Part shown: positions 2,168 through 64,000 of the stretch, piece after piece
Position numbering within the stretch: the stretch's first letter is position 1
How the letters are laid out: the number at the start of each line of letters is the position of its first letter
NCBI GenBank assembly: GCA_963751275.1
Contig: CAVVTZ010000012.1
Coordinates: 32,001 to 96,000, forward strand
DNA length: 64,000 bases
DNA from: an uncultured Gemmatimonadaceae bacterium
Lineage (GTDB): Bacteria > Gemmatimonadota > Gemmatimonadetes > Gemmatimonadales > Gemmatimonadaceae
Reading direction: 5' to 3'
Translations under genes and position numbers: made by a program
The notes under the pieces: generated by a model
Database searches by the model: none
Told to the model about the DNA's origin: nothing
The model's input: only the letters and a program-made list of their open reading frames with translations

Positions 2168-2258
2168 GCAGGCGTTGGTCGAAAGGCAGTCGTTGGTCGT
2201 ACGCGTTTAGAACCGCTAAACGCGTACGACTAACGACTGCCCTTCGACCAACGCCTGC
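2168..2258. repeat. Long palindrome (43-bp arms, 5-nt loop, 2 mismatches) between convergent genes
   Basis: 2168-2210 gcaggcgttggtcg...cgcgtttag pairs with 2216-2258; contains GTCGTTG-type heptamers. Confidence 0.95.
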
Positions 2259-3992
2259 CTAATACCCCACCGCCCCTCCACTCGTCCTCCGGTCCACCAC
2301 GCCCACCCATCCCTCCTTCGTTCGTCCGATCGCGAACACTCGTCCGATGAACGGGTCGCCGCCGAAGTCGGCGACGAGCACGCGGTGCCCCATCGCCGTG
2401 AGCGAATCGACCACCGGCTGCGTCAGCGCGCCCGCCTCGTACCGGATGGTGTCCGGCCGCGCCTGTTCGTGGATCCGAGGCGCGTTCACCGCGTCCACCA
2501 GCGGCAGGCCGTAGTCGATCACCCCGATCAGCACCTGCAGCACCGACGTGATGATGCGCGGCCCGCCGCGCGCGCCGAGGATCAGCGTCACCCGGTTCGC
2601 CGAATCGAGCACGATGGTCGGTGCCATCGCGCTCAGCATCCGCTTGTGCGGCGCGATCGCGTTCCGCTCGCCCTGCACCAATCCGTACATGTTCGCTTCG
2701 CCCGGCCGCGCCGTGAAATCATCCATCTCGTCGTTCAGGAAGAACCCCGCGGCGGCGACGTACACGCCCGATCCGTACAGATCGTTGAGCGTGGTCGTGG
2801 TAGCGACCGCGTTCCCCTTCGCGTCCACGACGGAGTAGTGCGTCGTGTTGACGCCCTCGGGAGCGCGTCCCGCGCCGGCCGGCGACTGCCGCTCGGCATC
2901 GGCCGTGGGCGTCGCGCTGTCCTTGGAGATCGCCGCGGCGAGGCTCCGTCCGTACGCCTTGCTCACCAGCTGCGCGATCGGCAACGGCGCGAAATCCGGA
3001 TCGCCGAGCAGCGCGTTGCGGTCCACGAACGCGCGCCGCAGCGACTCGGCCAGCAAATGGGTCTCCATCGTGCCGCGCACGGGCGGCAGCGGGCCGAACG
3101 TCTCCAGGATGTTCAACGCCTCGATCGTGGTCACGCCGCCGGAGGAGGGCGGCGGCATCGAGATGAGGGTGTACCCGCGATACGTGCCGACGATCGGATC
3201 GCGCCATGCCGGGTGGTACCCTTTGAGATCGGCGAGCGTGATGATGCCGCCGTCCCTCTTCTGTTCATCGGCGATCGCCTTCGCGACCTCGCCGTCGTAG
3301 AAACCGCGCGCGCCGTGCGCCGCGATCGCCTTGAGCGTGCGCGCCAGCGCGGGCTGCACGAGTCTCCGGCCCGCCACGAGCGGCTTGCCGCCGGGCATCA
3401 GCAGCTTCGCGCCGTCGTACCGGGAGATGAGCCCCCCCAAGTGTTCGATCGAGTTCGCGAACGCCGTGTCCACGACGAAGCCCTTCTCGGCGAGCCGGAT
3501 CGCCGGCGCCATCACGCGCGCGAGCGGCAATCGCCCGAACTCCGCGTGCGCCGTCGTGAGGCCCGCGACCGAGCCCGGCACCCCGGATGCGCGCGGCCCG
3601 ATGATGCTCGCCTTGTTCGCGCCGCTCGCGCTGTCCATGTACATCTCGCGCGTCGCGGCGCTCGGCGCCATCTCGCGGTAGTCGAGCGCCGCGGTGCGGC
3701 CGTCGGCCATGCGGATCACCATGAATCCGCCGCCGCCAATGTTGCCAGCCTCGGGATAGGTGACCGCGAGGGCGAATCCCACCGCCACCGCCGCATCGAC
3801 CGCATTCCCGCCCGCCTTCAGGATCTCGACGCCCGCGGCCGAGGCGAACTCGCTATTGGACGCGATCATCGCGTGCACGCCGCCCACGGCCTCGCCCGCG
3901 GTGGCGCGCGGCCCCGGCGCCTGCGCGGCCGCGGTCGAGATCACGAGTGCAACAGCGACGGATCCGATGATTGTGCGAAGCAATGAACGCAT
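2259..3992 (-). CDS. ggt: Gamma-glutamyltransferase
   Basis: Signal peptide; GGNAVDAAVA, DYREMAP, autocleavage motif TTHYSVVD, NDEMDDF. Confidence 0.95.
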   Translation of the reverse strand: MRSLLRTIIGSVAVALVISTAAAQAPGPRATAGEAVGGVHAMIASNSEFASAAGVEILKAGGNAVDAAVAVGFALAVTYPEAGNIGGGGFMVIRMADGRTAALDYREMAPSAATREMYMDSASGANKASIIGPRASGVPGSVAGLTTAHAEFGRLPLARVMAPAIRLAEKGFVVDTAFANSIEHLGGLISRYDGAKLLMPGGKPLVAGRRLVQPALARTLKAIAAHGARGFYDGEVAKAIADEQKRDGGIITLADLKGYHPAWRDPIVGTYRGYTLISMPPPSSGGVTTIEALNILETFGPLPPVRGTMETHLLAESLRRAFVDRNALLGDPDFAPLPIAQLVSKAYGRSLAAAISKDSATPTADAERQSPAGAGRAPEGVNTTHYSVVDAKGNAVATTTTLNDLYGSGVYVAAAGFFLNDEMDDFTARPGEANMYGLVQGERNAIAPHKRMLSAMAPTIVLDSANRVTLILGARGGPRIITSVLQVLIGVIDYGLPLVDAVNAPRIHEQARPDTIRYEAGALTQPVVDSLTAMGHRVLVADFGGDPFIGRVFAIGRTKEGWVGVVDRRTSGGAVGY

Positions 3993-4099
3993 TCGGCATC
4001 TCCCGGTTCTCTTGCGACGACCGCGCGACGACGGGTAACTTAGCCCGCGTGCCGGGGCGTTGCCACGCGCCGCGCGCTCTCCTCTTTTGACGAGCCGAC

Positions 4100-5029: not shown

Positions 5030-6165
5030 CGCCCGGCGACTCGGTCATCATCGGCTTGATGTCCGGCACCTCGGCGGACGGCATCACCGCGGCCGCCGTG
5101 CGCTTCATCGACAGCGGCACCCCCGCTCCTGATCTCGAGCTGCTCGCGAGCGTCACGCGCGAATATTCCGCAGCGCAGCGGGGCCGCCTCCTGCGCGCCG
5201 GCCTCGAGCAGCCTCCCGAGGCGATCACGCGGCTCGATTTCGAACTCGGCGAATGGCTCGCCGACGCCGCGCGCGCCGCGATCACCGCCGCACGGCTGCG
5301 TCCCGGCGACGTGCGCGCCATCGCCTCCCACGGTCACACCGTGTGGCACGCCGGCGCGCACGGCACCTGGCAGATCGGTCAGGCCGCGGTGATCGCCGAG
5401 CGCACGGGACTCGACGTGATCAGCGATTTCCGCGTGCGCGACGCCGCCGCGGGCGGGCAGGGCGCGCCGCTCGTCGCGATCGCGGATGCGCTGCTCTTCG
5501 CCTCGCCCGATCACGCGCGCGCGCTCCAGAACCTCGGCGGCATCGCGAACGTGAGCGTCGTGCCGCCGCGCGGGAGCGCCGAGCCGGTGCTCGCTTTCGA
5601 CACGGGACCCGGCTGCGGCGTGATCGACGGCGTCGTGCGCCGCCTCGTGCCGTCGCTCACCTTCGACGTGGACGGCGCCCTCGCCGCGCGCGGCACGGTC
5701 ATTCCGGCGCCGGTGGATGCCGCACTCGCCGATCCCTACTTCGCCGCGCCCCCGCCGAAGTCCACCGGCCGCGAGAAGTTCAGCGTCGAGTACATCGCGA
5801 ATGTCATCGCGCGCTGCCAGGCGGCCGATCGCAACGCCCGCCCGGAGGACATTGTCGCGAGCGCGGTGTCGCTCACGGCGCGCAGCATTGCACTCGCGTA
5901 CCAGCGTTTCGTTCCGCCCGCGCTCGCCGACGTCCTGCTCTCCGGCGGCGGCGCGAGGAACCCCACGCTCGTGCGCGCCATTCGCGAAGCGCTCGCCCCG
6001 CGCACCGTGCGCCTGTTCAGCGAGGAATTCTTCGACGACGATGCGAAGGAGGCCGTCGCCTTCGCGTTCTTGGGATGGCTGCATCTCGGGGGACGCCCGG
6101 GGAATGTGCCCTCAGCGACCGGAGCGACCGGTCCGCGTGTTCTGGGGAAGTTCACGCCGCGGTGA
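5026..6165 (+). CDS. anmK: Anhydro-N-acetylmuramic acid kinase
   Basis: GLMSGTSADG, GGQGAPLV, NLGGIAN, FDTGPG, KSTGREKF, KEAVAFA; GTGA overlap with murQ. Confidence 0.95.
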   Translation: MTPGDSVIIGLMSGTSADGITAAAVRFIDSGTPAPDLELLASVTREYSAAQRGRLLRAGLEQPPEAITRLDFELGEWLADAARAAITAARLRPGDVRAIASHGHTVWHAGAHGTWQIGQAAVIAERTGLDVISDFRVRDAAAGGQGAPLVAIADALLFASPDHARALQNLGGIANVSVVPPRGSAEPVLAFDTGPGCGVIDGVVRRLVPSLTFDVDGALAARGTVIPAPVDAALADPYFAAPPPKSTGREKFSVEYIANVIARCQAADRNARPEDIVASAVSLTARSIALAYQRFVPPALADVLLSGGGARNPTLVRAIREALAPRTVRLFSEEFFDDDAKEAVAFAFLGWLHLGGRPGNVPSATGATGPRVLGKFTPR

Positions 6166-6319
6166 AGGGCTCCAACAACACTGCTTTGACAGGATGACAG
6201 GATTTTCAGGATGCACGGGATGACTGCCCTGCGCCTCACGCGCAGGGCAGTCATCCCGTGCATCCTGAAAATCCTGTCGTCCTGTCAAAGCAGTGTTGTT
6301 GGGGCCCTTCACCGCGGCG
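6155..6319. repeat. 80-bp-arm palindrome (CTGCTTTGACAGGAT family) overlapping both flanking stop codons
   Basis: 6155-6234 pairs with 6240-6319; the two mismatches are T:G; 9-bp GGAT periodicity. Confidence 0.95.
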
Positions 6320-7743
6320 CGATGAGCCCCGCGATCCTATCCGCCGGCACCGCGTACACGATACGCCCCGCCGCTTCGCGCGCGCCGCCGTACACGACGC
6401 CGATCACGCGGCCATCCGGGGCGAACACGGGACTCCCGCTCGAACCCTCGCCCGCGTACGCATCCACCTGCAGCACGTCGTCCAGGTGCTTGCTCACGGT
6501 GCCCGCCACGAGCGTGGAGCGCGCGATGATCTTCGTGCCGCTCCCTTCCATTGGCGTCTCGGTGCCCAGCGGATAGCCGATGATGGCCACCTGCGCGCCC
6601 ACGGGAATGTCCGCGGTGCTGTGCGCGATGCCGCCGACCACCGGATACGTTCCCGGCGCGTCGATCTGCAGCAGCGCGAGGTCCGCGTCGGTGCTCGAAC
6701 GCACCACGTGCGCGGGGAGCCATGTCTTCGTGTCGCTGAAGATGAGCAGCACCTGCCGCGGCGTGTGGCCGTTGCTGTCGCTCACCAGGTGCCGGTTGGT
6801 GATGACGTAGCCCGCGGCATTCACGCCGAAGCCGGTGCCGCTGAAGCTGTGCCCATCGGGCCACTGCACCGCCACGAGCGCCACCGCCGGCCCGCTCTGC
6901 TGGGCGATCGCGGGATAGCTGATCGCCGCCGAGAGGATGTCGTGGCGCTTCGTCTCGCTGCGCGACAGCTGGCTCGCGATCGCCTTCGCATCCGAGCCGC
7001 GACCGGCGAGCTTCAGCGCGGATTGCAAGCGGTCGATCTCCAGGCGCGACGCGCTGAGCGCCGAATCGATCCCCGCCATCTGGCTGCTCATCGTGAGCAC
7101 GCGGTCGGCGAGTACGTTCTGCAGGCTGTCGTTCTCGGCGCGCTTGGCGGCGAGCTCCGCGTCCAGGCGGTCGGCCTCCCGGCGTCCCACCCAATACGCG
7201 GCGATGAGCGCGATCACCACGAGCGCGAGCGCGCCCATCGCCCACCGCCGCAGTTGGCGCGTGTGCGCGCGCACGGCCACCGCGATCCGCTCCGTGGTAG
7301 AGCCCGCGGCGCTCTTGGGCGCACCCGCCCCCACCGGCCCCGTCTTCTCGAGCCGGAGCCCGCGCAGCGCCGGGCTCGTCGAACCGAGCGCCTGCTTCGG
7401 GAACTCCGTGGTGTCGCGCACCATGTAGGGCGGCGCCAGCAGCCGCACCGCCACCTGCGGACCGTGCGCGCCGAAGGTCAGCACGTCGCCGTCGCGCAGC
7501 ACCCAGTTCCCCGGGATGCGCGCGCCGTTCACGAAGGTGCCGTTCGTGCTCTGCGTGTCGCGCAGCACGTACTCGGCGTTGACGACCTCGATCTCGGCGT
7601 GGCGCGCCGAGACGTCGAGGTCGAGCTGGGCATCGAAGCGGAAATCGCAGAGCGGGTTGCGGCCCAGCGGGATCGAGCGACTTCGCGAACTGCTCGCGCT
7701 GGCCGGCGCGCGCGCCGCGCAGCACCCGCAGCTCGAGCGTCAC
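6309..7743 (-). CDS. FHA domain + TM + coiled coil + trypsin-like serine protease; frameshift near 7675
   Basis: FHA motifs GR...VSARHA...STNGTFVNG; protease motifs GTGF, TNRHLV, DLALL, GSSGSPV. Confidence 0.85.
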
Positions 7744-8970: not shown

Positions 8971-8995
8971 GCCAACAACCTACGCAAAAGTGCGC

Positions 8996-10746: not shown

Positions 10747-10751
10747 TGCGC

Positions 10752-11858: not shown

Positions 11859-11999
11859 GCGGATGCCTCGAGGGGTGACCGAATAAGACGCCTAAGGATG
11901 CGGCGAGGTCAACAGTATCGTCAACCAACCGTAAGACGGAAAATGACTTATATCACATCCGCCTCCCCCGCGGTCATGCCCGGTGCTAGTTTCCCCGCC

Positions 12000-16839: not shown

Positions 16840-16958
16840 GAACAAACTGCTTTGACAGGATGACAGGATAACAGCTGATGAACAGGATGACGGCATCGGC
16901 GATGCCGTCATCCTGTTCATCAGCTGTTATCCTGTCATCCTGTCAAAGCAGTTTGTTC
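16840..16958. repeat. Perfect 59-bp-arm palindrome with 1-nt spacer (CTGCTTTGACAGGAT family)
   Basis: 16840-16898 is the exact reverse complement of 16900-16958. Confidence 0.97.
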
Positions 16959-19957: not shown

Positions 19958-20166
19958 CAACGGCTTCCACGCGGATCGCGCGGAATCCGCGGATGACGCG
20001 GACGGATGGCTCCGCGGGGCGGACGAGGCCGACGTGCGAGAATCACGCTGTTGTATTTGTTGTTAACAACAAGAATGCGATATCGAAGAACGCCCGATGG
20101 GCATTCCGTCCCGCGGAGCGAGCCGCGCAATCCGCGCAGTCCGCGTGATCCGCGTGGAAGCCGTTG
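19958..20166. repeat. Imperfect ~210-bp palindrome with 9-bp CGCGGAT periodicity and an AT-rich central palindrome, upstream of the GxxExxY gene
   Basis: caacggcttccacgcggatc ... gatccgcgtggaagccgttg; centre TTGTTGTTAACAACAA (20057-20072). Confidence 0.9.
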
Positions 20167-20250: not shown

Positions 20251-20664
20251 ATGCCAAGTGCCGATCTAGTCGAGGGGCCGCTCACGGGAAGCGTGATCGG
20301 GGCGTTCTACGAGGTGCACCGAACTCTCGGATTCGGATTCCTGGAGCAGATCTACGCGGAAGCGCTGACTCGGGAACTGATCGCGCGCGGGCATCGCGTC
20401 AGCCGCGAAGTCGGGGTGCCGGTCAAGTATAAGGGGGAGCAGTTGGCGCTCCAGCGCCTCGACATGGTCGTCGATGAGAAAGTCGTCGTCGAGGTCAAGG
20501 CCACGGAGGTGATGCACGCTCGCGCCGAAAGGCAGCTGCTCAACTACCTGCGAGCGAGCGACCTCGAGGTAGGGCTCCTGCTCCACTTCGGGCCGAAGGC
20601 GGTCTTTCGCCGGCTCGTATCGACTCACTCCCGGCGAGGTGCGCGCGGGGCCCATGACGCGTAA
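20251..20664 (+). CDS. GxxExxY protein (PD-(D/E)XK-like nuclease fold)
   Basis: LGFGFLEQIY, RLDMVVDEKVVVEVKA, QLLNYL, GLLLHFG. Confidence 0.92.
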   Translation: MPSADLVEGPLTGSVIGAFYEVHRTLGFGFLEQIYAEALTRELIARGHRVSREVGVPVKYKGEQLALQRLDMVVDEKVVVEVKATEVMHARAERQLLNYLRASDLEVGLLLHFGPKAVFRRLVSTHSRRGARGAHDA

Positions 20665-21403: not shown

Positions 21404-21410
21404 GTCGCAC

Positions 21411-21457
21411 ACGTTCGCCGTTAGCCGTTAAGAGTTCCAACGGCTAACGGCGAACGT
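21411..21457. repeat. 19-bp-arm palindrome of GCCGTTA heptamers between convergent genes (possible terminator)
   Basis: acgttcgccgttagccgtt - 9 nt - aacggctaacggcgaacgt. Confidence 0.85.
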
Positions 21458-21464
21458 TTGTCGT

Positions 21465-35107: not shown

Positions 35108-35111
35108 CGCG

Positions 35112-35498
35112 ATGAGGCTGCGCGACAAGGCGGAGATCATCATCGCCTGCGCGCTGCTGCCTCCCGCGCTCGAGGTGATCCCGGCGGCGCGGATCGCGGC
35201 GTGGCTGCGGCGCCTGCGTCCGCGCCGCGACCGGTCGATCTCGGGGGAGCGATACGCGTCGGCGGTGGACCGTGTGCTGGATCGCGGGGCGCTGGTGTGG
35301 CGGAACACATGCCTGCGGCGCGCGGTGGTGCTCACGGCATTGTTGCGCCGGGCGGGACGTGATGCCGAGGTCGTGATCGGCGTGCGGCGGAGTTCCGACG
35401 GAAGGGTCGAGGCGCACGCGTGGCTGCGGTGCGATGGCGTGGAACCGTACCTCGAACCGCAGGATATCGAGTCATTCGTCCGGCTCACGCCTGCTTAG
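35112..35498 (+). CDS. Lasso peptide B2-like (transglutaminase-like) protein
   Basis: TCLRRA, VVIGVRR and AHAWL motifs. Confidence 0.8.
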   Translation: MRLRDKAEIIIACALLPPALEVIPAARIAAWLRRLRPRRDRSISGERYASAVDRVLDRGALVWRNTCLRRAVVLTALLRRAGRDAEVVIGVRRSSDGRVEAHAWLRCDGVEPYLEPQDIESFVRLTPA

Positions 35499-35520: not shown

Positions 35521-35640
35521 CCCGAACGCCTCACGCGGTGCAGTCCGTTCGGCGCACGCCTCACGCCTCACGGCATTCGGGGTGCGCCTCACGCCACCGA
35601 ATCAGTTCGGCGCACGCCTCACGCCTCACGGCGTTCGGGT
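35521..35640. repeat. One-armed array of CGCCTCA-heptamer / ACGGCGTTCGGG units
   Basis: Two copies of gttcggcgcacgcctcacgcctcacggc.ttcggg; same family as 48143 and 57297. Confidence 0.85.
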
Positions 35641-38977: not shown

Positions 38978-39096
38978 TCGAAACCCGAAATCCGTGATTC
39001 GTCCCCCGAACTCCGTCAATGACGAGTGGTTCGTCGTGCTCGAACCACTCGTCATTGACGGAGTTCGGGGGACGTATCACGCGCTTCGAGGTTCGA
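38978..39096. repeat. Palindrome of the CCCCGAACTCCG family
   Basis: Core 38993-39081 has ~41-bp arms (1 mismatch) and a 7-nt loop; the outer extension is imperfect. Confidence 0.92.
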
Positions 39097-48142: not shown

Positions 48143-48410
48143 GGGCGTGAGGTGCACCCCACACGCCGTGAGGCGCACCCCCAACACCGTGAGGCGTGAG
48201 GCGCACCCCACACGCCGTGAGGCGTGAGGCGTGCGACGGACGAGCCGGGCGGCTGCGGCATGACGCCTCACGGCTCACGGTGTTCGGGTCGCGCCTCGCG
48301 CAGTTCAGTCTGTTCGTCGCACGCCTCACGCCTCACGGCGTTCGGGGTGCGCCTCACGCATCACAGTTAGTTCGTCGCACGCCTCACGCCTCACGGCGTT
48401 CGGGTCGCCA
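48143..48410. repeat. Composite palindromic array of GTGAGGC/GCCTCAC heptamers and 21-bp units
   Basis: Left half carries gtgaggcg units; right half carries cgcctcacgcctcacggcgttcggg units. Confidence 0.9.
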
Positions 48411-48642: not shown

Positions 48643-50343
48643 ATGTACCTCTCCCTCGCCCGAAAATACCGCCCGCGGCGTTTCGCCGATGTCGCAGTGC
48701 AATCGCATGTCGCGAACACGCTCAAGGGCGCGATCGCGCGCGGGCGCGTCGCGCACGGGTATCTCCTGTGCGGGCCGCGTGGAGTGGGGAAGACGACGCT
48801 CGCGCGCGTGCTCGCGATGGCGCTCAACTGCGAGCGCCGCGCCGCCGACGGCGAGCCGTGCGGCGAGTGCGAATCGTGCAAGCGGATCTGGGCCGGGTCC
48901 ACCGCGCTCGACGTCGTCGAGATCGACGCCGCGTCGAATCGCGGCGTGGATGACGCGCGCGAGTTGCGCGAGCGCGCCATGTATGCGCCCAACAGCGACA
49001 CCGGCTACAAGGTCTACATCGTGGACGAAGCGCACATGCTCACGCGCGAGGCGTGGAACACGCTCCTCAAGATCCTCGAGGAGCCGCCGCCGCGCGTCGT
49101 GTTCGTCTTCGCCACGACCGAGCCGCAGAAGATCGCCCAGGCCGCCGCCCCGGTGCTGAGCCGCCTGCAGCGCTTCGACTTCAAGCGGATCGGCCCGGCC
49201 GACGTGCGCACCCGTCTCGCGACGGTGCTCCAGGAAGAGCACGTGAAGGCCGAGCCCGAGGCGCTGGTGATGCTCTCACGCGCGGCCGACGGTTCGATGC
49301 GCGACGCGCTCTCGCTCGCCGACCAGGCGCTCTCGCTGGGCGACGGCACGCTCACCGCCGCGCGCGTGCGCGAGGCGCTGGGGCTCGTGGCCGAGGACGA
49401 GTACCTCGCGGTGCTCGACATCATTCTCGAGCGCCGCGCCGGCGACATCTTCCCCGCCGTCGCGCGCCTCGTGGACCAGGGTGTGGACCTGCCGGGATTC
49501 CTGACGGGATTCGCGGATCTGCTGCGTTCGCTCCTCACGATCCAACTCGGAGGAAAGGGCGACGACCTTTCGGAGTCGCTGAAGGCGGGCCTCGGCGCAC
49601 GGCGCGCGGCGCTCGGCAACGGCGATGTGCTGCGTATGCTCACGGCGCTCACCGAACTCGAACCGCGGTTCCGACGGTCGGGGCAGCAGCAAATCCTGCT
49701 CGAGACGATGCTTGTCCGGTTCGCGCTCCTGGATCACACGGTTGACATTGAGGAACTGCTGGGCGCCATGGGGTCGCGGAGCGGCGGAGGGGCTGCGCCG
49801 GGCCCAAGCACACCCGTCGCTCGGGACTCGGGACTCGGGACTCGCCGCGGGACGCGGGAAGCGAGTGCCGCTCCCGTCAGTTCATCGCCTCCCGCGGCGC
49901 GTCCCGAGTCCCGAGTCCCGAGCAATGAATCAAGCTCGGGCCCGACTCAGCTCATCAGTCTCGAGTCACTCGCGGGATCCTGGCAGCGAGTCGTGAGTGC
50001 CGTCAGCGCAGCAGGCAGAAGCATGCTCAGCGGCGCTCTCGCGCACTCGCGGCCCGTCGGCGTATCCGGGAACGGCGAAATCACATTGGAGTTGACCCCG
50101 GATGGCGCCATGTACGAGCAGCCGCTCTCGAGCGGTTCCTCGGATGTGCTCGCCGCCGTCGCCACGTTGTTCAGCGGCGGCTCGAAGCTCAGCGTCCGTG
50201 TCGCCACGGCGGGCACGGCCGACGCCGCGCCGAAGCGGATCACGGCCGAGAGCGTCAAGGCCGAGCGTCTCGCGACGATCCGGAAGAAGGATCCGGCCTT
50301 GGACGCCGCAGTAGATTCCCTGGATCTGGAACTGCTCGACTAG
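48643..50343 (+). CDS. dnaX: DNA polymerase III subunit gamma/tau
   Basis: LARKYRP, GPRGVGKTT, EIDAASNRGVDD, DEAHML, LEEPP. Confidence 0.96.
   Translation: MYLSLARKYRPRRFADVAVQSHVANTLKGAIARGRVAHGYLLCGPRGVGKTTLARVLAMALNCERRAADGEPCGECESCKRIWAGSTALDVVEIDAASNRGVDDARELRERAMYAPNSDTGYKVYIVDEAHMLTREAWNTLLKILEEPPPRVVFVFATTEPQKIAQAAAPVLSRLQRFDFKRIGPADVRTRLATVLQEEHVKAEPEALVMLSRAADGSMRDALSLADQALSLGDGTLTAARVREALGLVAEDEYLAVLDIILERRAGDIFPAVARLVDQGVDLPGFLTGFADLLRSLLTIQLGGKGDDLSESLKAGLGARRAALGNGDVLRMLTALTELEPRFRRSGQQQILLETMLVRFALLDHTVDIEELLGAMGSRSGGGAAPGPSTPVARDSGLGTRRGTREASAAPVSSSPPAARPESRVPSNESSSGPTQLISLESLAGSWQRVVSAVSAAGRSMLSGALAHSRPVGVSGNGEITLELTPDGAMYEQPLSSGSSDVLAAVATLFSGGSKLSVRVATAGTADAAPKRITAESVKAERLATIRKKDPALDAAVDSLDLELLD
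49819..49923. repeat. 105-bp in-frame palindrome of GGACTCG heptamers inside the dnaX linker
   Basis: 49819-49852 pairs with 49890-49923 (34 bp, 1 mismatch). Confidence 0.92.
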
Positions 50344-50685: not shown

Positions 50686-50692
50686 GGCGGCG

Positions 50693-51280
50693 ATGTCGGC
50701 GATCGAGGATCTCGCCGCCGAGCTCGCGAAGCTGCCCGGGATCGGGCGGAAGACCGCGCTGCGGCTCACGTACTACCTCCTGAAGCAGCCGCCGGCGCAG
50801 AGCCGCCGGCTTGCGGAGGCGCTCGGCCTGCTCGTGGAGCGCGTGCGCCGCTGCTCGGTGTGCGCGAACCTCACCGAGGCGGATCCCTGCGCGATCTGCA
50901 CCGACCCGCGCCGCGACCGCGCGATCCTCTGCGTGGTGGAGGAGAGCGCGGACATTGGCGCCATCGAGCGGGCGGGGGAATTCCGCGGCGTCTACCACGT
51001 GCTGGGCGGACGGCTGAGCCCGCTGGACGGCGTGGGCCCCGAGGACCTGACCGTCACGCAGCTGGTGGAGCGGGTCTCGCGCGGCGCCGTGAAAGAGGTC
51101 ATCGTTGCGACGAACCCGAGCCTCGAAGGAGAGGCCACCGCGTTGTACCTTCAGCGCCAACTGGCGGGGCAAGTTCCGGTGGTGTCGCGCATCGCGCGAG
51201 GGTTACCCGTGGGAGGCGACCTGGAATACGCTGATGGGGTCACGATCGCGCAGGCTCTCAGTGCGCGGAGAGCGATGTGA
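50693..51280 (+). CDS. recR: Recombination mediator RecR
   Basis: LPGIGRKTALR, C4 zinc finger, ATNPSLEGEAT, GGDLEYAD. Confidence 0.96.
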   Translation: MSAIEDLAAELAKLPGIGRKTALRLTYYLLKQPPAQSRRLAEALGLLVERVRRCSVCANLTEADPCAICTDPRRDRAILCVVEESADIGAIERAGEFRGVYHVLGGRLSPLDGVGPEDLTVTQLVERVSRGAVKEVIVATNPSLEGEATALYLQRQLAGQVPVVSRIARGLPVGGDLEYADGVTIAQALSARRAM

Positions 51281-51301
51281 GGCACCGCACGGGATAGTAG
51301 C

Positions 51302-51471
51302 GACCCGAACGCCGTACTTGGTCACCCGAACTCCGCCATTGGCCACTGAGGAGTGGTACGAGCGACGGCGTTGCTGGGATGGTGTCACCGCAACGCCAAG
51401 TACGCCCAAGTCGTGACTACACCTCATTGGCCAATGGCGGAGTTCGGGGGACCAAGTACGGAGTTCGGGTC
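51302..51471. repeat. Palindrome with 50-bp arms, sibling of 60772-60931
   Basis: 51302-51351 pairs with 51422-51471 (3 mismatches). Confidence 0.92.
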
Positions 51472-51541
51472 CTGAGTGGCTTCAGCGTGTAGATAATCGT
51501 CCTGTGTAGGCGGTATTCCCCCCTCGAGGAACCCGGATTAG

Positions 51542-52027
51542 ATGCCCGTCGGTGCTGCCAGTTGGTCCTTCACCGAAGACGATTACGGCGCGATCCTGCG
51601 CTCCCTCCAGCAGTTCCTCTACGACAGCAACGCGCGCAGCGCGCTGCTCGTGGATCGCTCGGGGCAGCTCGTCGCGACCGTCGGGGAGCAGCCGCATTTC
51701 GACCCGACGGCCTTCGCCACGCTCACGGCCGCCGATTTCAGCGCCAACGACCAGCTCGCCCGCCTCATCGGCGAGACCGAGTTCAGCTCCCTCTTCCACC
51801 AGGGCGAGCAGGAGTCGATGTACCTCGTCGACATCGCCCGCCGCGTGATCCTCGTGATCCTGTTCGACAATCGCACCACGCTCGGCCTCGTCCGCCTGAA
51901 GGTGAAGACCACGGTGGAGGAGCTCGCGCGGCTGTTCACGGTCATGTTCGAGCGCGGGCGCGACGGGGCGAGTTCGCCCAACATCCTGGCGGGCGCCGAG
52001 GATGAGATCGACCGGCTGTTCCAATAG
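51542..52027 (+). CDS. mglB: Roadblock/LC7 protein MglB
   Basis: [35 protein letters not shown]; upstream of mglA. Confidence 0.9.
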
Positions 52028-52719: not shown

Positions 52720-52735
52720 TTCCGGAGGCGCGCGC

Positions 52736-53431: not shown

Positions 53432-53437
53432 CGCACG

Positions 53438-54310
53438 GTGGCTGAGTTCGGCGTCCAGCCGCCCGGCTACCGGCTGCCGCCGGAGACCCACGTCGGGCGC
53501 GTGCGGCTGCAGGTCGGCGACCTCGACCGCTCGCTCGCGTATTACGTCGGCCTGCTCGGTTTCAAAGTGCTGGAGCGCGCGCCGGGACGCGCCGAGTTGG
53601 GCGTGGACACCCCGCTCATCGAGCTGCACGAACTCAAGGGCGCGCGCCGCGTGCCCCGCCGCGGGCGCCACGGCCTCTTCCACTTCGCCATCCTGCTGCC
53701 CGACCGCGCGTCGCTTGGCCGGATCCTGGCGCGGCTCGAGTCGGCGGGGATCCAGGTCGGCTCGGCGGACCACGCGGTGAGCGAGGCGCTGTACCTCACC
53801 GATCCCGACGGGCTCGGCATCGAGATCTACGTCGACCGTCCGCGCGCCGAGTGGCAGCGCCGCGGCGCGGAACTGCACATGGTCACCGAGCCACTCGACA
53901 TCGATTCGCTCATGCGGGCGGCGGGGAGCGAGCCGTGGAGCGGAATGCCCAAGGGCACCGTGATCGGCCACGCGCACCTGCACGTGGAGCAGCTCGAGAG
54001 CGCGCTCGCGTTCTATCACAATGCGCTGGGCCTCGATCTCATCGTGTGGAGTTATCCGGGCGCGATCTTCCTCTCGGCGGGTGGGTATCACCACCACCTT
54101 GGCGCGAACACGTGGGCGGGGGCGGGCGCGACTTCGCCGGCGGGGGATGAGGCGCAGCTGCTGGACTGGGAATTACTGCTGCCGGGGTCGCTGAACGACG
54201 TTTCGGCGAGCTTGGAGAGTGCGGGGCACAAGATCGAGCGATTGCCCGCCGGTGGGGTTCGAGTCAAGGATCCATCGGGGACGCACGTCAGGATCGTTTC
54301 AAAGGGCTAA
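53438..54310 (+). CDS. VOC family protein (catechol 2,3-dioxygenase CatE-like)
   Basis: GLFHFAILLP, DHAVSEALYLTDPDG, GHAHL, GGYHHHLG. Confidence 0.88.
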   Translation: MAEFGVQPPGYRLPPETHVGRVRLQVGDLDRSLAYYVGLLGFKVLERAPGRAELGVDTPLIELHELKGARRVPRRGRHGLFHFAILLPDRASLGRILARLESAGIQVGSADHAVSEALYLTDPDGLGIEIYVDRPRAEWQRRGAELHMVTEPLDIDSLMRAAGSEPWSGMPKGTVIGHAHLHVEQLESALAFYHNALGLDLIVWSYPGAIFLSAGGYHHHLGANTWAGAGATSPAGDEAQLLDWELLLPGSLNDVSASLESAGHKIERLPAGGVRVKDPSGTHVRIVSKG

Positions 54311-54370
54311 CGGCAGACGTCGACTGGCGACTGACGATTGACGCCTGCAACAACTATTCCGGTACCGGTT

Positions 54371-55333
54371 ATGCGCGCTGGGATCATTGTGGGGCTGACG
54401 ATTATTTCGGCCGGCTCCGTCTCAGGGCAGGCGGCGATCGCGTGTGTGCAGAAGGCGACGGCGCCAGCGGGTGGAGATACGGCGGTGAAGGTGGCGGCGC
54501 TGATGGCGTCGGGGCATGCGTTGGTCGCGAAGAGGGAATTCGCCGTCGCGGCGGACTCGTTCAAGAAGGCGAGCGAGCTCGATCCGAAGAGCGCCGAGGC
54601 GTTCCTCTGGTACGGGAATGCGCTCGGGCAGGCGGCGGCGACCGCGTCGTCGTTCAAGCAGGCGTTCATGGCGCCCAAGATGAAACATGCGTGGGAGCGC
54701 GCGGTGCAGCTCGACAGCTGCAACGTGGCGGCGCGCGAGAGCCTCGTGCAGTTCTACGAGCAGGCGCCGGGGATCATGGGCGGCAGCATGGACAAAGCGC
54801 GCGCGGAATTGGCGGAGATCAAGGCGATCGATCCGTACCGCGGTGAGATCCAGACCGGCAATCTCGCGCAGCGCGAGAAGGACCTCGCCGGCGCCGCGGC
54901 GGCGTACGAATCCGCATCGAAGATGCCGGGCGATTCCACCGGGCGCGCGTGGGGGAGCTGGGTGTTCGTGCTGGAAGAACAGGCGAATTTCACGGCGGCG
55001 TTCGCGGCCGTCGATGCGCGATTGGCGAAGCAGCCCGGCGATCTCGTTGCGCTCACGTTGCTCGGCCGCGGCGCCGCAATGTCGGGGCAGCGGCTGCCCG
55101 AGGGGCTCGCCGCGCTGCGAACGGTGATGGCCGATTCCGCGGAGGCGGCGTCGCCGCGGAATGGATTCCGGATCTCGGCGGCGGGGCTGCACTACCGAAT
55201 GGCGATGATCCTCGCCCTCCAAGCCGATAGCGCGGCGGCGCTGGCTGAATACAGGCAAGCGGCAGCGCTCGCGCCGAAGGACAAGAGTATCAACGAAGCG
55301 GCGGAGAAGTTCGAGAAGGCTGCGAAACACTAA
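54371..55333 (+). CDS. Secreted TPR-repeat protein
   Basis: Signal-like N-terminus; TPR helices; APGIMGGSMDKA motif. Confidence 0.8.
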   Translation: MRAGIIVGLTIISAGSVSGQAAIACVQKATAPAGGDTAVKVAALMASGHALVAKREFAVAADSFKKASELDPKSAEAFLWYGNALGQAAATASSFKQAFMAPKMKHAWERAVQLDSCNVAARESLVQFYEQAPGIMGGSMDKARAELAEIKAIDPYRGEIQTGNLAQREKDLAGAAAAYESASKMPGDSTGRAWGSWVFVLEEQANFTAAFAAVDARLAKQPGDLVALTLLGRGAAMSGQRLPEGLAALRTVMADSAEAASPRNGFRISAAGLHYRMAMILALQADSAAALAEYRQAAALAPKDKSINEAAEKFEKAAKH

Positions 55334-55335
55334 GA

Positions 55336-56385
55336 ATGACGATCGCTGGCCTCGGTGCTCATGTTTCGGCGCTCGTTATTTGCTGCGCAGTTCTTTCGGC
55401 GAACGCAACGGTTGCAGATGCGCAGCTCAGCGGTAGAGTGGTGAGCGGCGATTCCCCTGTGAACGAAGCTCAGGTGGAGCTCTGGTCCGCGACCACCCGC
55501 ATCGCGCAGCGGGTGAGCGGACCCGACGGCACCTTTCGCTTCAGCGAAACGGAGCGCGGGTCGGCGATCGCAATCTTGACGCGCCGCATCGGGTTCGTGC
55601 CTCAACGCGTCCGGCTCGACGCCACGACCGGAGAAGTCGAGATCCATCTAACGGTGCTCATGACTGTTCTGCCGCAGGTACAAGTGAGCGGGAGCGTCAT
55701 CGCATGCCCGAACTCTCCTTCGAGCAATGCGCGGGCGATATGGGAGAAGCTGCGGTCGAGGTATGCCGACGGCACGGGCCTCGCGCGCGGCTCGGAATAC
55801 CTTGCTTGGAGCGGCGTAGTGAGCCGCGGGCACTTCGGTGAGATCGACCTCGGGCACCTCAAGCCAGGATCCCGAGCAATGAGTGCGACCGGTATCGCTA
55901 TGACGCAGAAGTTGATCGAGCAGCTCGGCTATGTCTGGCCCGCGCACACCATTGGCTCCGGCGAGGACTACGGGATCTGGCAATATCCGCCGCTCGAGGC
56001 GGACTACTCACAGCATTTCGTGGAGTCGTCGTTCGGGGCTCGACACTCGCTAAGTCTGCTCAAGGACGAGGGCGCCGGGAGCACCATCGCATTCTGCCCG
56101 GCGGATCGAAAGAAGAGTGGCCTCGAGGGTACGCTAAGCATTGACGCGGACGGAGATCCAGTGCGAGCGCAGTGGCGCTACTGGAATCCCACGCGCCAAG
56201 CGGAAGAGTCAGGAGGTGAAGTCAGCTTCGCACCGCGCGATCCCAGAAGTGCGGCACCGGTCCTGCTAGCAGCCAATGGCATGTTCTGGCGCCGGCTCAG
56301 ATCGGGAGACTATTGGGAGCGCTGGCAGGAATATTCAGGCTGGACGATCCAACGAGGCGACTCGCTTCTCGAGCAGAAGCGTTAG
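55336..56385 (+). CDS. Secreted protein with N-terminal carboxypeptidase-regulatory-like domain
   Basis: LSGRVV..PVNEAQV..DGTFRF..RRIGF; visibly more A/T at third codon positions than neighbours. Confidence 0.75.
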   Translation: MTIAGLGAHVSALVICCAVLSANATVADAQLSGRVVSGDSPVNEAQVELWSATTRIAQRVSGPDGTFRFSETERGSAIAILTRRIGFVPQRVRLDATTGEVEIHLTVLMTVLPQVQVSGSVIACPNSPSSNARAIWEKLRSRYADGTGLARGSEYLAWSGVVSRGHFGEIDLGHLKPGSRAMSATGIAMTQKLIEQLGYVWPAHTIGSGEDYGIWQYPPLEADYSQHFVESSFGARHSLSLLKDEGAGSTIAFCPADRKKSGLEGTLSIDADGDPVRAQWRYWNPTRQAEESGGEVSFAPRDPRSAAPVLLAANGMFWRRLRSGDYWERWQEYSGWTIQRGDSLLEQKR

Positions 56386-56440
56386 GGGAGCACCCGCCGT
56401 TGCACGCGACAGTCGCCAGTCGACAGTCGACGTCTGCCTT

Positions 56441-56815
56441 TCAGTCGCCGGTCGGGACGATCTCCTTTCCTTCCACCATGAGCATGACCGTCCGCTGCGG
56501 CGCGCGGGTCCGGTGCGTCACGCCTCTCGGGATCACGAATCCTTGCTGCGGCATGAGTTCCACCGTGCGCCCCTCGAGATCGATGATGAGCTTCCCTTCC
56601 ACCACGTAGAAGAATTCGTCGAGGTCGTCGTGCTGGTGCCAATGGTATTCGCCCTGCACGATCCCCACGCGCACCACCGAATCGTTCACGGCGCAGAGGG
56701 TCTGATTGAACCACGGATGCGTGACCGTCGCGGCGACCTTCTTCAGGTCGATCACCTCGAGCGGGCCGTGGGCGATGTCGAGGCGCGTCTCGTACGGGAA
56801 GTCCGGCTTACCCAT
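56441..56815 (-). CDS. Cupin domain protein
   Basis: GEYHWHQHDDLDEFFYV; IPRGVTH. Confidence 0.9.
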   Translation of the reverse strand: MGKPDFPYETRLDIAHGPLEVIDLKKVAATVTHPWFNQTLCAVNDSVVRVGIVQGEYHWHQHDDLDEFFYVVEGKLIIDLEGRTVELMPQQGFVIPRGVTHRTRAPQRTVMLMVEGKEIVPTGD

Positions 56816-57239: not shown

Positions 57240-57296
57240 CTGACGCCCCCCGTTGGACTGCAATGAACCCTATGTGCGAATGGCGTGGGTGGCAAC

Positions 57297-57738
57297 CCGA
57301 ACGGCGTGAGGCGCGACCCGAACGCCGTGAGGCGCGACCCGAATGCCGTGAGGCGTGAGGCGTACGTCGAACTGATCTTGGGGCGTGCGACGCACCCCGA
57401 ACGCCGTGAGACGCGACCCGAAAACCGTGAGGCGTGAGGCGTACGTCGAACTGATCTTGGGGCGTGCGACGCACCCCGAACACCGTGAGACGCGACCCGA
57501 ACGCCGTGATTCGTACCCCGAACGCCTCGAGGCGTGAGTGCCCTCACGGCGTTCGGGGTGCGTCTCACGCCCCAAGATCAGTTCGACGTACGCCTCACGC
57601 CTCACGGTGTTCGGGGTGCGTCTCACGGGGTTCGGGTCGCGTCTCACGGTGTTCGGGGTGCGCCGCACGCCCCAAAGTCAGTTCGACGTACGCCTCACGC
57701 CTCACGGCGTTCGGGGTACGAACAACGGCGTTCGGGGT
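57297..57738. repeat. ~440-bp composite palindrome of 7-, 21- and 79-bp nested units
   Basis: CCCGAACGCCGTGAGGCGCGA units; GAACTGATCTTGGGG at 57369 and 57448; orientation flips near 57540. Confidence 0.95.
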
Positions 57739-57772
57739 TCCACTGCCGCCCTTCCGGCGTGAGATTCCACCC

Positions 57773-59024: not shown

Positions 59025-59053
59025 CGGAGTCCTCTTTCTCCACTGTGAATCGC

Positions 59054-59623: not shown

Positions 59624-59633
59624 GCGCGTAGCG

Positions 59634-60761: not shown

Positions 60762-60771
60762 GGGCGGGCGC

Positions 60772-60931
60772 AGCACCCTGAACGCCGTACTTGGTCCCCC
60801 GAACTCCGCCATTGGCAACTGAGACGTAGTCACGGCTCGGGCGTTGCTGGGACCAGATCCGCCCTAGCCGTGACTACGCCTCAGTTGCCAATGGCGGAGT
60901 TCGGGGGACCAAGTACGGAGTTCGGGGTGCT
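60772..60931. repeat. Palindrome with 72-bp arms, sibling of 51302-51471
   Basis: 60772-60843 pairs with 60860-60931 (4 mismatches). Confidence 0.93.
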
Positions 60932-60964
60932 TCTAACGGCGGATCGCGGCTGTAGATTGGGAGT

Positions 60965-61990: not shown

Positions 61991-62018
61991 GCGTGCCACT
62001 TCACGGGAGAACGCGCGT

Positions 62019-64000
62019 ATGAGCGTCGCCGAGATCTTCGAGACAATGACGTATGGCCCCGCGCCGGAGAGCGCGAAGCCGGCACTCGACTGGATCGCGG
62101 AGCACGGCGGCACTTTCGGGCATTTCATCGGCGGCAAGTTCGTGAAGGGAAAGACGCTCTTCGAGACAATGAACCCCGCCACCGGCAAATCGCTCGCGCG
62201 CGTGTCGCAGGGCTCCAAGAACGACGTGAATGCCGCGGTGAAGGCGGCGCGCGCGGCGCAGCCGGCGTGGGCCAAGCTGCCCGGGCACGAGCGCGCGCGG
62301 CACCTGTACGCGCTCGCGCGCGCGGTGCAGAAGAATGCCAGGCTGCTCGCGGTGCTCGAGAGCCTCGACAATGGCAAGCCGATCCGCGAGACGCGCGATC
62401 TCGATATCCCGCTCGTCGCGCGCCATTTCTATCATCACGCCGGCTGGGCGCAGCTGATGGAGACCGAGTTCGCGGGCTACGGCGCGATCGGGGTGGTGGG
62501 GCAGATCATCCCGTGGAACTTCCCGCTGCTCATGCTGGCGTGGAAGGTCGCGCCGGCGCTCGCGGCGGGGAACACATCGGTGCTCAAGCCCGCGGAGTTC
62601 ACGCCGCTCAGCGCGCTCTGCTTCGCCGAGCTGGCCGCGCGCGCGGGATTGCCGCCGGGCGTCTTGAATATCGTGACGGGCGACGGCGAGACCGGCGCCG
62701 CTCTCGTCGATCATGCGGACGTGGACAAGATCGCCTTCACCGGATCCACTGATGTGGGCCGCGTGATCCGCCGCGCGACGGCGGGCTCGGGCAAGAAGCT
62801 CTCGCTCGAGCTCGGCGGGAAGAGCCCCTTCATCGTGTTCGAGGACGCCGATCTCGACAGCGTCGTCGAAGGCGTCGTGGACGCGATCTGGTTCAACCAG
62901 GGGCAGGTCTGCTGCGCCGGCTCGCGGCTGCTGGTGCAGGAGGGGATCGCCGAGCGCCTCACCGACAAGCTGCGCGCGCGCATGGAGAAGCTGCGCGTCG
63001 GCTCGCCGCTGGACAAAGCCGTGGACATGGGCGCGATCGTCGCGCCGGTGCAGCTCGAGCGGATCCGCACGCTGGTGGCGAAGGGAGTCGAGGAAGGCGC
63101 CGAGATGTGGCAGCCGAGCTGGGCCGTGCCCAAGGAGGGCTGCTTCTACCCGCCGACCTTGTTCACCGAGGTGGCGCCGAGCAGCACGATCGCGCAGGTG
63201 GAGATCTTCGGCCCCGTGCTCGTGAGCATGACCTTCCGCACGCCGGAAGAGGCCGTGGCCCTCGCGAACAACACGCCCTTCGGCCTCGCGTCGAGCGTGT
63301 GGACGGAGAACATCAATCTCGCGCTCGACATCGCGCCGAAGATCAAGGCGGGGGTGGTGTGGGTCAACTGCACGAATCTGTTCGATGCTTCTGCCGGCTT
63401 TGGCGGGTATCGCGAATCCGGTTTTGGCCGGGAGGGCGGGCGCGAGGGGATGTGGGAATACGTAAAGGCACAACGGCAGGATGTCGGCCGTCGGCTGTCG
63501 CCTGCGAAACGCACGGTGCCGGCAGCCGACAGCCGACAGCCCGCTGTGGACCGCACTCCCAAGTTGTACATCGGCGGGAAACAGGCGCGCCCGGACTCCG
63601 GATACTCCCGGCCCGTGAAGGGCGCGGGCGGTCGCGTGATCGGCGAAGTGGGCGAGGGAAACAGAAAGGACATCCGCAACGCCGTCGAAGCGGCGCACGC
63701 GGCGGGTGGCGCATGGGCCCGGAGCACCGGGCATGCGCGCGCGCAGATCCTGTACTACATCGCGGAGAATCTGTCGGCGCGCAGTGCCGAGTTCGCGGCG
63801 CGGATCGAGTCGATGACGGGGAAGGGCGGGGGCAGCGCCGAGGTGGAGGCGAGCATCTCGCGGCTGTTCACCTACGCAGCGTGGGCGGACAAGTGGGATG
63901 GCGCCGTGCACTCCGTGCCGATCCGTGGCGTGGCGATGGCGATGAACGAGCCGATCGGCGTGATCGGCGTCGCGGCGCCGGAGCTTCACCCACTCCTGGG
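62019..64000 (+). CDS. Tandem-domain aldehyde dehydrogenase (ALDH16-like), 3'-truncated; absent from the ORF track
   Basis: Read from DNA: MSVAEIFETMTYGPAPES, IIPWNFP, FTGST, LELGGKSP, NQGQVCCAG, EIFGP, then a second domain from DRTPKLYIGG. Confidence 0.93.
   Translation, partial: MSVAEIFETMTYGPAPESAKPALDWIAEHGGTFGHFIGGKFVKGKTLFETMNPATGKSLARVSQGSKNDVNAAVKAARAAQPAWAKLPGHERARHLYALARAVQKNARLLAVLESLDNGKPIRETRDLDIPLVARHFYHHAGWAQLMETEFAGYGAIGVVGQIIPWNFPLLMLAWKVAPALAAGNTSVLKPAEFTPLSALCFAELAARAGLPPGVLNIVTGDGETGAALVDHADVDKIAFTGSTDVGRVIRRATAGSGKKLSLELGGKSPFIVFEDADLDSVVEGVVDAIWFNQGQVCCAGSRLLVQEGIAERLTDKLRARMEKLRVGSPLDKAVDMGAIVAPVQLERIRTLVAKGVEEGAEMWQPSWAVPKEGCFYPPTLFTEVAPSSTIAQVEIFGPVLVSMTFRTPEEAVALANNTPFGLASSVWTENINLALDIAPKIKAGVVWVNCTNLFDASAGFGGYRESGFGREGGREGMWEYVKAQRQDVGRRLSPAKRTVPAADSRQPAVDRTPKLYIGGKQARPDSGYSRPVKGAGGRVIGEVGEGNRKDIRNAVEAAHAAGGAWARSTGHARAQILYYIAENLSARSAEFAARIESMTGKGGGSAEVEASISRLFTYAAWADKWDGAVHSVPIRGVAMAMNEPIGVIGVAAPELHPLL
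63476..63544. repeat. 69-bp in-frame palindrome of GCCGACA heptamers in the ALDH inter-domain linker
   Basis: 63476-63500 pairs with 63520-63544 (21/25). Confidence 0.75.

What the first reader, a model, noticed from the sequence alone, without database searches (positions are those of the whole stretch)
2168..63544. A dense, sequence-diverse superfamily of long palindromes built on 7-bp and 9-bp periods: candidate undescribed mobile system
Seen: about 15 elements in 64 kb (2168, 6155, 16840, 19958, 21411, 24281, 35521, 38978, 48143, 49819, 51302, 54312/56399, 57297, 60772, 63476). They share architecture rather than sequence. One class uses tandem heptamers that each hold a CG (GGACTCG, GCCGACA, CAGTCGA, GCCGTTA, CGCCTCA, GTCGTTG) or 21-mers. 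The other uses nonamers ending in GGAT. Several arms are 40-80 bp, well beyond what a terminator needs. Known: REP/REPIN elements are spread by RAYT Y1 transposases, and Rickettsia palindromic elements insert in frame into genes. Inference: this is an analogous system in which periodicity or structure is what gets recognised. No RAYT lies in the window; the only nuclease-like gene is GxxExxY.
Basis: partly seen in the sequence, partly recalled or inferred. Interest (0 to 1): 0.85.

Follow-up and report, generated by a model that had tools for sequence, protein, structure and literature searches.

The report
Swappable repeat-armed palindromes with cognate genes
Hundreds of hairpin-forming repeats just after gene ends in this bacterium are gene-less copies of two small cassettes, one carrying a four-helix-bundle gene and one a tiny nuclease gene, and close relatives carry different hairpins at the same spots, which points to a mobile-DNA system with no known transposase.

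Summary
The palindromes are real: 12 long inverted-repeat clusters in the window, 381 in the genome, none in two shuffles. They share sequence, not only architecture: about 20 families of up to 41 copies. Ten 7/21-bp families match the arms around a four-helix-bundle gene (PF05635, Avd/S23p-like); 8/9-bp families go with GxxExxY PD-(D/E)XK genes. The pairing holds broadly: 54 of 76 four-helix genes (53 with period 7) and 59 of 74 GxxExxY genes (53 with period 8-9) have arms; controls 0 of 140 and 0 of 75. Species 92-93% identical hold a different palindrome at about half of orthologous sites, and one site is filled in two species and empty here. No RAYT or reverse transcriptase was found. The cassette genes are under purifying selection. 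It is built like an ORF-bearing 23S rRNA intervening sequence and behaves like RAYT/REPIN, but is neither. Mobilisation by the cassette proteins is inferred, not shown. The scan noted this cassette type before in other genomes.

The parts
2168..2258 (.). Closed palindrome, 43-nt arms, heptamer-type family 16 (my numbering), between the stop codons of two convergent genes; no gene-bearing cassette confidently matched to this family
6152..6322 (.). Closed palindrome, 83-nt arms, 8/9-bp family 3 (arms like those of the GxxExxY cassette at G000:C7:952020-952538); G176 and G177 carry a four-helix-class family-9 palindrome at this site
16840..16958 (.). Closed palindrome, perfect 58-nt arms, family 3
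19958..20166 (.). Nonamer palindrome with 121-nt spacer and a central T/G-rich mini-palindrome, family 4; lies 5' of the GxxExxY gene and does not enclose it
20251..20664 (+). GxxExxY gene (TIGR04256, PF13366 PD-(D/E)XK), 137 aa; one-sided arrangement, same site in G174, G176, G177
21408..21460 (.). Short GCCGTTA heptamer palindrome between convergent stop codons; single copy in the genome
24281..24366 (.). Nonamer palindrome, family 2, arms pointing outward; same arm type as around the GxxExxY gene at G000:C7:943262; G176 has only a 38-nt gap here
35521..35640 (.). Run of CGCCTCA heptamer/28-mer units of family-5 type, not called a closed palindrome; relatives hold other, longer arrays here
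38978..39096 (.). Closed palindrome, family 12 (21-mer group related to families 1 and 5)
48145..48404 (.). Compound family-5 palindrome upstream of the SRP RNA gene; arms match the four-helix cassette at G000:C9:571057
49819..49923 (+). GGGACTC heptamer palindrome, family 8, read in frame in the DnaX linker (residues about 393-427); frame kept in G174, G176, G177
51302..51471 (.). Family-1 palindrome between recR and mglB; arms match the four-helix cassette at G000:C9:573418-574101; three relatives each carry a different palindrome here and G175 none
54309..54351 (+). Single heptamer arm (like the arms of the cassette at G000:C9:147210-147726), starting at the stop codon of the upstream gene
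54485..56385 (+). Two host-type genes (TPR protein; carboxypeptidase-regulatory-like domain protein) lying between the arms at 54309 and 56399; capture or chance not resolved
56399..56441 (-). Single heptamer arm, inverted partner of 54309
57282..57736 (.). Expanded family-5 palindrome (129-nt best arm); the gap is 533 nt here and 253, 252, 134 nt in relatives
60772..60931 (.). Family-1 palindrome whose inner part matches the inner flanks of the family-1 four-helix cassette; other families at this site in relatives
63476..63544 (+). Weak GCCGACA palindrome read in frame between the two domains of the aldehyde dehydrogenase-like ORF starting at 62019

Best explanation
The palindromes are the empty, non-autonomous forms of two cassette classes. 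Class 1 has inverted arms of 7-bp (or 21-bp) units around a four-helix-bundle gene (PF05635). Class 2 has inverted arms of 8/9-bp units around, or just before, a GxxExxY nuclease gene. A genome holds about ten gene-bearing cassettes and about 360 empties in about 20 families. SHOWN: the class pairing; arms and gene changing site together; filled and empty alleles; exchange of the occupant at fixed sites next to stop codons; concerted change of the two arms; purifying selection on both genes; no detectable RAYT or reverse transcriptase. INFERRED: the cassette protein binds its own repeat arms and leads to a break at an existing hairpin. GxxExxY would cut directly as a small Hjc/Cas4-like nuclease. 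The four-helix pentamer would act as the specificity factor for a host enzyme, or by unknown chemistry. The break is repaired by copying from another element or cassette (replacement, homing-like) or from the opposite arm (symmetrisation). Deletion of the loop gives empties. Selection tolerates the elements after stop codons and in protein linkers.
For: Pairing: 6 of 6 four-helix genes of G000 have arms. 26 of 32 in the bacterial family, 54 of 76 across GTDB (53 with period 7), controls 19 of 662 own genes and 0 of 140 flank pairs. GxxExxY: 20 of 31 in the phylum and 59 of 74 in metagenomes (53 with period 8-9), control 0 of 75. Protein follows arms, not site: same arm family at different sites 57-83% identical (6 hand-picked pairs), different family at the same site 50-65% (8 pairs) (quick tree). 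Filled in G174 and G176, empty with a 24-nt loop at G000:C11:13802-13827. Orientation and arm family differ between species at G000:C9:147k. Orthologous sites, G177 against G174: 17 same, 16 different palindrome, 2 none, of 35 anchored (8 of 43 not anchored). Against G176: 11, 20, 3 of 34. dN/dS 0.05-0.24 in 16 of 16 pairs. Invariant E, D, ExK and Q positions in 24 GxxExxY proteins; best fold hits are Cas4 and Hjc. Three relatives lacking both genes show no periodic intergenic palindrome in 100 kb each. Y1_Tnp 0 of 6, RVT_1 0 of 5 genomes.
Against: No movement or cleavage was observed. There are no identical copies: 2 of 364 have a copy at least 95% identical, 10 at least 90%, unlike a fresh transposon burst. 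I saw no target-site duplication by eye and no end motif common to all families. PF05635 has no known catalytic activity. The fold hits for GxxExxY are weak (best E 4.6e-3). G023 (3 PF05635 matches) and G088 (1) had 0 palindromes in 100 kb, so the gene is not sufficient. Families 10, 12 and 16 have no confidently matched cassette. Truly pristine empty sites were hardly found. G-T pairs exceed A-C pairs on the mRNA strand (224 to 173, p 0.012), which fits RNA-level selection. All six genomes are 63-89% complete, and I did not screen for DDE, IS110 or tyrosine recombinases.
Confidence: 0.58

Rival explanations
1. The hairpins are kept by the host as RNA structures at 3' ends (terminator, RNase III site, barrier between convergent transcripts). 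Ordinary RecA-dependent gene conversion and template switching spread and swap them. The two genes are repeat-binding regulators or passengers, not mobilisers.
For: Sites are conserved. Elements occupy 101 of 289 convergent gaps against 154 of 1977 tandem gaps, median 12.5 nt from the stop codon. Small G-U excess on the mRNA strand. No identical copies. RNase III excises the Coxiella IVS (PMC4990558 passages).
Against: Unrelated families with no shared arm sequence replace each other cleanly, including across classes. Related genomes lacking both genes manage without such hairpins. It does not explain why period 7 goes with one gene and period 8/9 with the other across many phyla with more than 50 different units. 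The GxxExxY catalytic residues are invariant.
Confidence: 0.25
2. The elements move through RNA. The read-through transcript folds, the Avd-like pentamer binds it, and a reverse transcriptase copies it back, as in DGR retrohoming.
For: PF05635 resembles the DGR accessory protein Avd (PMC10053308 passages). Every copy differs from every other. The layout matches rRNA intervening sequences.
Against: No RVT_1 match in 5 of 5 genomes, including single-contig G177. It does not cover the GxxExxY class.
Confidence: 0.08
3. They are ordinary REP/REPIN elements or MITEs moved by a RAYT or other transposase elsewhere in the genome.
For: Same population pattern: inverted doublets, one cognate gene per family, family switches at orthologous genes (PMC3116915 and PMC3686654 passages). 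The genomes are incomplete.
Against: Y1_Tnp 0 of 6 genomes. GTAG at 4.9% and CGTC at 6.5% of 728 ends (random 1.9% and 10.6%). The genes inside the arms are not HUH transposases.
Confidence: 0.05
4. Long-read fold-back or assembly artefacts.
For: The assembly has single-base indels (nrdJ split).
Against: Imperfect arms, family structure, position after stop codons, presence at the same sites in three other assemblies, in-frame conservation and presence in short-read contigs.
Confidence: 0.01

Closest known systems
ORF-bearing intervening sequence (IVS) of 23S rRNA, e.g. Coxiella burnetii (PMC4990558; passages read)
   Same: Terminal inverted repeats (28-bp stem), tandem heptamers, a four-helix-bundle S23p ORF in the loop (PF05635; structure 2gsc, E 2e-36), similar size (about 430-700 nt), and it replaces a small hairpin loop. 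Origin and mobility are stated to be unclear.
   Different: Here the elements lie after protein-gene stop codons and in linkers, not in rRNA. The 23S gene is 2987 nt with no ORF insert. There are hundreds of gene-less copies in about 20 families, a second class with GxxExxY, and exchange between species.
REPIN/RAYT systems (PMC3116915, PMC3686654; passages read)
   Same: Hundreds of intergenic inverted doublets per genome; each family sits beside its own near single-copy gene; new elements land in or next to old ones; different repeat classes flank genes at the same locus in related strains.
   Different: No Y1/HUH transposase, no GTAG/CGTC tag, arms are tandem 7- or 8/9-mers rather than short self-palindromes, and the gene-bearing cassette itself changes site.
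Orphan heptamer repeats: GGGAATC of Xanthomonas (PMC4692102, passages) and TAACTGA of Beggiatoaceae, Cyanobacteria and Bacteroidetes (PMC4679880, abstract and passages)
   Same: Intergenic 7-bp tandem units; 70-75 inverted pairs in Xanthomonas; GGGAATC-like units occur in family 11 here and in four-helix cassette arms. MacGregor states that no transfer mechanism is evident.
   Different: The passages I searched did not link them to a four-helix-bundle gene. I could not test the link in those organisms (one search found no such pattern in 301 sampled genomes).
Rickettsia palindromic elements (recalled, no paper read)
   Same: Palindromes inserted in frame in protein linkers.
   Different: In-gene copies are a minority: 16 of 381 clusters overlap called genes, some of them unrelated coding repeats. 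The units are periodic and tied to cognate genes.
DGR accessory protein Avd (PMC10053308, passages)
   Same: Homologous four-helix-bundle family.
   Different: No reverse transcriptase was found in the genomes; TR/VR pairs were not looked for.

Membership tests
REP/REPIN-RAYT | Y1 (HUH) RAYT transposase flanked by the repeats | tested here: not met
   PF01797 in 0 of 6 same-genus genomes, 63-89% complete
REP/REPIN-RAYT | GTAG or CGTC tetranucleotide at the repeat end | tested here: not met
   4.9% and 6.5% of 728 ends; random 1.9% and 10.6%
REP/REPIN-RAYT | High-copy, extragenic inverted doublets, each family tied to its own gene | tested here: met
   365 of 381 intergenic; families; cognate cassettes for families 0, 1, 5, 6, 7, 8, 9, 13, 14, 17 and 2, 3
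ORF-bearing 23S rRNA IVS | Located inside the 23S rRNA gene | tested here: not met
   23S of G000 is 2987 nt with no inverted-repeat cluster
ORF-bearing 23S rRNA IVS | Terminal inverted repeats with heptamers around an S23p/PF05635 ORF | tested here: met
   Filled cassettes elsewhere in the genome; the window copies are empty
ORF-bearing 23S rRNA IVS | Excised from RNA by RNase III | not testable with these tools
   No RNA holder listed
MITE / IS-derived element | Target-site duplication and near-identical copies | tested here: not met
   2 of 364 copies at least 95% identical; no duplication seen by eye in allele pairs, where pristine empty sites were scarce
MITE / IS-derived element | Autonomous DDE or other transposase with the same ends | not tested
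   Only Y1_Tnp and RVT_1 were searched; long-range arm pairs enclosed no gene I recognised as a transposase
Diversity-generating retroelement | Reverse transcriptase beside Avd | tested here: not met
   PF00078 in 0 of 5 genomes
PD-(D/E)XK nuclease (GxxExxY protein) | Catalytic E..D..ExK motif and fold | tested here: met
   PF13366 E 1.5e-34; invariant E22, D62, E72, K74, Q86; model pLDDT 96, weak hits to Cas4, Hjc, AdnA; activity not tested
Rfam RNA family | Match at gathering score | tested here: not met
   Only SRP RNA in the window; sub-threshold miRNA hairpin hits

The most novel reading that the evidence does not exclude
A widespread class of mobile element with no transposase or reverse transcriptase. 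Two unrelated small proteins, the Avd-like four-helix pentamer and the GxxExxY nuclease, each read their own repeat period and drive cut-and-copy replacement of hairpins at fixed genomic docking sites. rRNA intervening sequences would be copies that landed in an rRNA helix, and the orphan bacterial heptamer repeats would be its empty progeny.
Probability: 0.4. Interest if true: 0.92.

Novelty: new variant of a known kind. Interest (0 to 1): 0.74.

Why it matters
It gives a testable function to two abundant uncharacterised families (PF05635 and GxxExxY). It offers an origin for ORF-bearing rRNA intervening sequences and for unexplained heptamer repeats. This genus is an unusually good test bed: 80-120 elements per Mb, about 20 families with matched genes, and alleles that differ between close species, so cognate and non-cognate protein-arm pairs can be tested directly. 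A 120-residue protein that directs replacement at hairpins would also be of interest as a tool.

Tried and rejected
RAYT and reverse transcriptase (G175 not searched): none found. Rfam: nothing relevant. A terminal motif common to all families (I had guessed an AAC-containing one): not seen in the family consensuses. Arm-to-arm identity against best other copy was uninformative (0.91 against 0.90); the column test replaced it. Gene fragments in empty loops: none deeper than 60 nt in six cassettes. The heptamer-unit consensus is weak (4.9 and 4.6 bits against 4.2 and 3.7); the five shuffles were identical because of a seed reset, so count them as one. The careful tree did not finish; one search is a quick tree without bootstrap. 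Sequencing runs: no RNA holder listed and shares of 0.07-0.11. The contigs laid are about 90% relatives, uninformative on within-species polymorphism. Link to Xanthomonas GGGAATC pairs: 0 of 301 sampled genomes held my pattern, and the sample may hold no Xanthomonas. Literature: ten searches found no paper on intergenic repeat-armed four-helix or GxxExxY cassettes. Subscription journals are mostly absent from the library, most hits were seen as listings only, and no supplements were read. Earlier-findings look-ups returned nothing. No complex prediction was run.
Full report
OBSERVATION. The window is G000:C12:32001-96000 of a 3.1-Mb, 68% G+C genome, 83% complete. Earlier notes on the same genome call it Gemmatimonadota; I did not check this. 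My scan found 12 long inverted-repeat clusters in the window and 381 in the genome, 365 outside called genes. Two 6-mer shuffles of a 439-kb contig gave 0 and 0 against 24. Gene calls come from my own hexamer caller and are approximate. All 16 coordinates are real. Three are single arms or open arrays, one is a weak palindrome, and two lie in frame inside proteins.

FAMILIES. Clustering put 364 elements in 20 families of 3-41 copies, with 17 singletons (numbering mine). Most have period 7 or 21. Families 2, 3 and 4 have period 8/9, and families 0 and 10 show little short period. Copies are never identical: 2 of 364 have a partner at least 95% identical, 10 at least 90%, 141 at least 80%. Deviations from the family consensus are shared by the two arms of one element far more often than by arms of different elements: 0.09-0.86 against null means of 0.02-0.13 in 15 families, above the null maximum in 14. 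Selecting elements by arm match inflates this somewhat. Elements sit in 101 of 289 convergent, 154 of 1977 tandem and 44 of 289 divergent gaps. 265 of 356 stop-side ends lie within 30 nt of the stop codon, against 19 of 242 start-side ends near a start. Adjacent stops are more often TAA: 79 of 262 against 94 of 634 for other genes followed by a gap of 80 nt or more. The stop codon itself differs between alleles at some sites.

COGNATE GENES. The genome has six TIGR02436/PF05635 four-helix-bundle matches, one of them interrupted by a stop, plus a seventh broken copy, and three GxxExxY genes. All six four-helix genes lie between inverted arms belonging to families 0, 1, 5, 6, 9 and 17; relatives add 7, 8, 13 and 14. 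One GxxExxY gene is enclosed by family-3 arms. One is enclosed by family-2 arms by eye only (it missed the ungapped score). The window's own copy follows a closed family-4 palindrome with no downstream arm, an arrangement seen at two sites in the genus. The pairing is general. Four-helix genes have arms in 26 of 32 untruncated loci from this bacterial family and 54 of 76 GTDB loci from many phyla, 53 with period 7 (4 of 80 dropped as truncated). GxxExxY genes have arms in 20 of 31 phylum loci (19 of 30 without unpublished G057) and 59 of 74 metagenome loci, 53 with period 8 or 9 (6 of 80 dropped). Controls gave 19 of 662, 0 of 140 and 0 of 75. These loci are the best hits of capped scans, not random samples. 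Both genes are under purifying selection (dN/dS 0.05-0.24, 16 of 16 pairs). GxxExxY keeps the PD-(D/E)XK residues, and its model resembles, weakly, Cas4 and the junction resolvase Hjc (best E 4.6e-3). The four-helix profile matches 2gsc, a pentamer homologous to Avd according to PMC4990558 and PMC10053308 (passages).

BEHAVIOUR BETWEEN SPECIES. G174, G176 and G177 are 92-93% identical to each other and 85% to G000, and carry 81-96 elements per Mb in about 520-530 kb each. Of 43 G177 elements, 35 could be anchored in G174: 17 same, 5 same family but different sequence, 11 another palindrome, 2 none. In G176, 34 were anchored: 11, 7, 13, 3. The classes are automatic. Many 'other' cases are related 21-mer families and a few are labelling misses. 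By eye, 6 of the 24 printed pairs are unrelated families and 3 of these cross between the 7/21-bp and 8/9-bp classes. Most 'none' cases are decayed remnants or mis-anchors. In the window, sites 6155, 51302, 54312, 57297 and 60772 change occupant. At G000:C11:13802-13827 family-7 arms close on a 24-nt loop, while G174 and G176 hold a four-helix gene between the same arm type. At another site G174 has a heptamer cassette where G000 has an empty nonamer palindrome. At G000:C9:147k the cassette differs in arm family and orientation among four species. Proteins group by arm family more than by site, so arms and gene travel together. Family-1 empties keep 10-22 nt of the cassette's inner flanks (17 of 38 left, 8 of 38 right), as internal deletions would; four of the other five cassettes tested showed little of this. 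Three relatives lacking both genes had 1, 1 and 0 inverted repeats per 100 kb, none a periodic intergenic element. Gene-bearing genomes had 4, 3, 7, 0 and 0. The sample is small and the genes are not sufficient.

MECHANISM. No Y1 transposase (0 of 6 genomes) or reverse transcriptase (0 of 5) was found; other transposase families were not screened. My best reading (0.58) is protein-guided breakage at an existing hairpin, followed by copying from another element (replacement) or from the other arm (symmetrisation), with loop deletion producing empties. The steps from binding onward are inference. The main rival (0.25) is host selection for 3' RNA hairpins spread by ordinary gene conversion. It is helped by site conservation and a small G-U excess (224 to 173), and hurt by clean swaps between unrelated families and the strict period-gene pairing.

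COMPARISON AND NOVELTY. The filled heptamer cassette has the layout of the Coxiella 23S IVS: a 28-bp stem, tandem heptamers and an S23p ORF, replacing a tetraloop, with origin unclear (PMC4990558, passages). It fails the rRNA-location test. The population behaves like REPIN/RAYT (PMC3116915, PMC3686654, passages) but fails the transposase and tag tests. Ten literature searches found no description of the intergenic system. Eight earlier scan notes report the same cassette types in other genomes; they gave me the IVS paper, which I then read in passages. What this genome adds, tested here, is the load, the family-to-gene matching, the cassette changing site with its arms, and replacement at fixed sites. 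Verdict: real, a new variant of a known kind, interest 0.74; if the proteins prove to be the mobilisers, a new class (0.4, interest 0.92).

Noticed in passing
window 51280-51542: In most other genera the recR-mglB gap holds a conserved ORF of about 90 codons; in this genus it is absent and a palindrome occupies the gap (one row is unpublished G156).
   Followed up: no
window 6152-6322: Both convergent genes end in the same three codons' worth of complementary sequence, so the palindrome extends into the gene ends; in G176 both ends carry the same change.
   Followed up: partly
window 17414-19871: The B12-dependent ribonucleotide reductase gene is split by single-base indels that short-read contigs of relatives lack, probably assembly errors.
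   Followed up: partly
G000:C2:108342-108679 and C7:978918-979255: Family 10: 16 long (about 330 nt), weakly periodic palindromes with the only near-identical pair (97-98%); no cognate gene found.
   Followed up: no
G000:C10:80765-82407: Inverted heptamer arms (42 nt) around 1.56 kb in which my caller found no good gene.
   Followed up: no
G000:C9:404107, C9:407583, C12:18472: Further heptamer palindromes (family 11) read in frame inside long genes.
   Followed up: no
G000:C14:57888-59080, C7:690733-692289, C2:81368-83693: Arm pairs enclosing single host genes, like window 54309-56441; composite capture or chance pairing of half elements.
   Followed up: no
window 33851-35498: A lasso peptide B2-family gene (NF033537, 35112-35498) follows a membrane-protein gene; no precursor was looked for.
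   Followed up: no
window 40386-40582: A 30-bp tandem repeat of about 6.7 copies and a proline/lysine-rich repeat inside or next to the ORF at 40134-40946; coding repeats, not part of this system.
   Followed up: no
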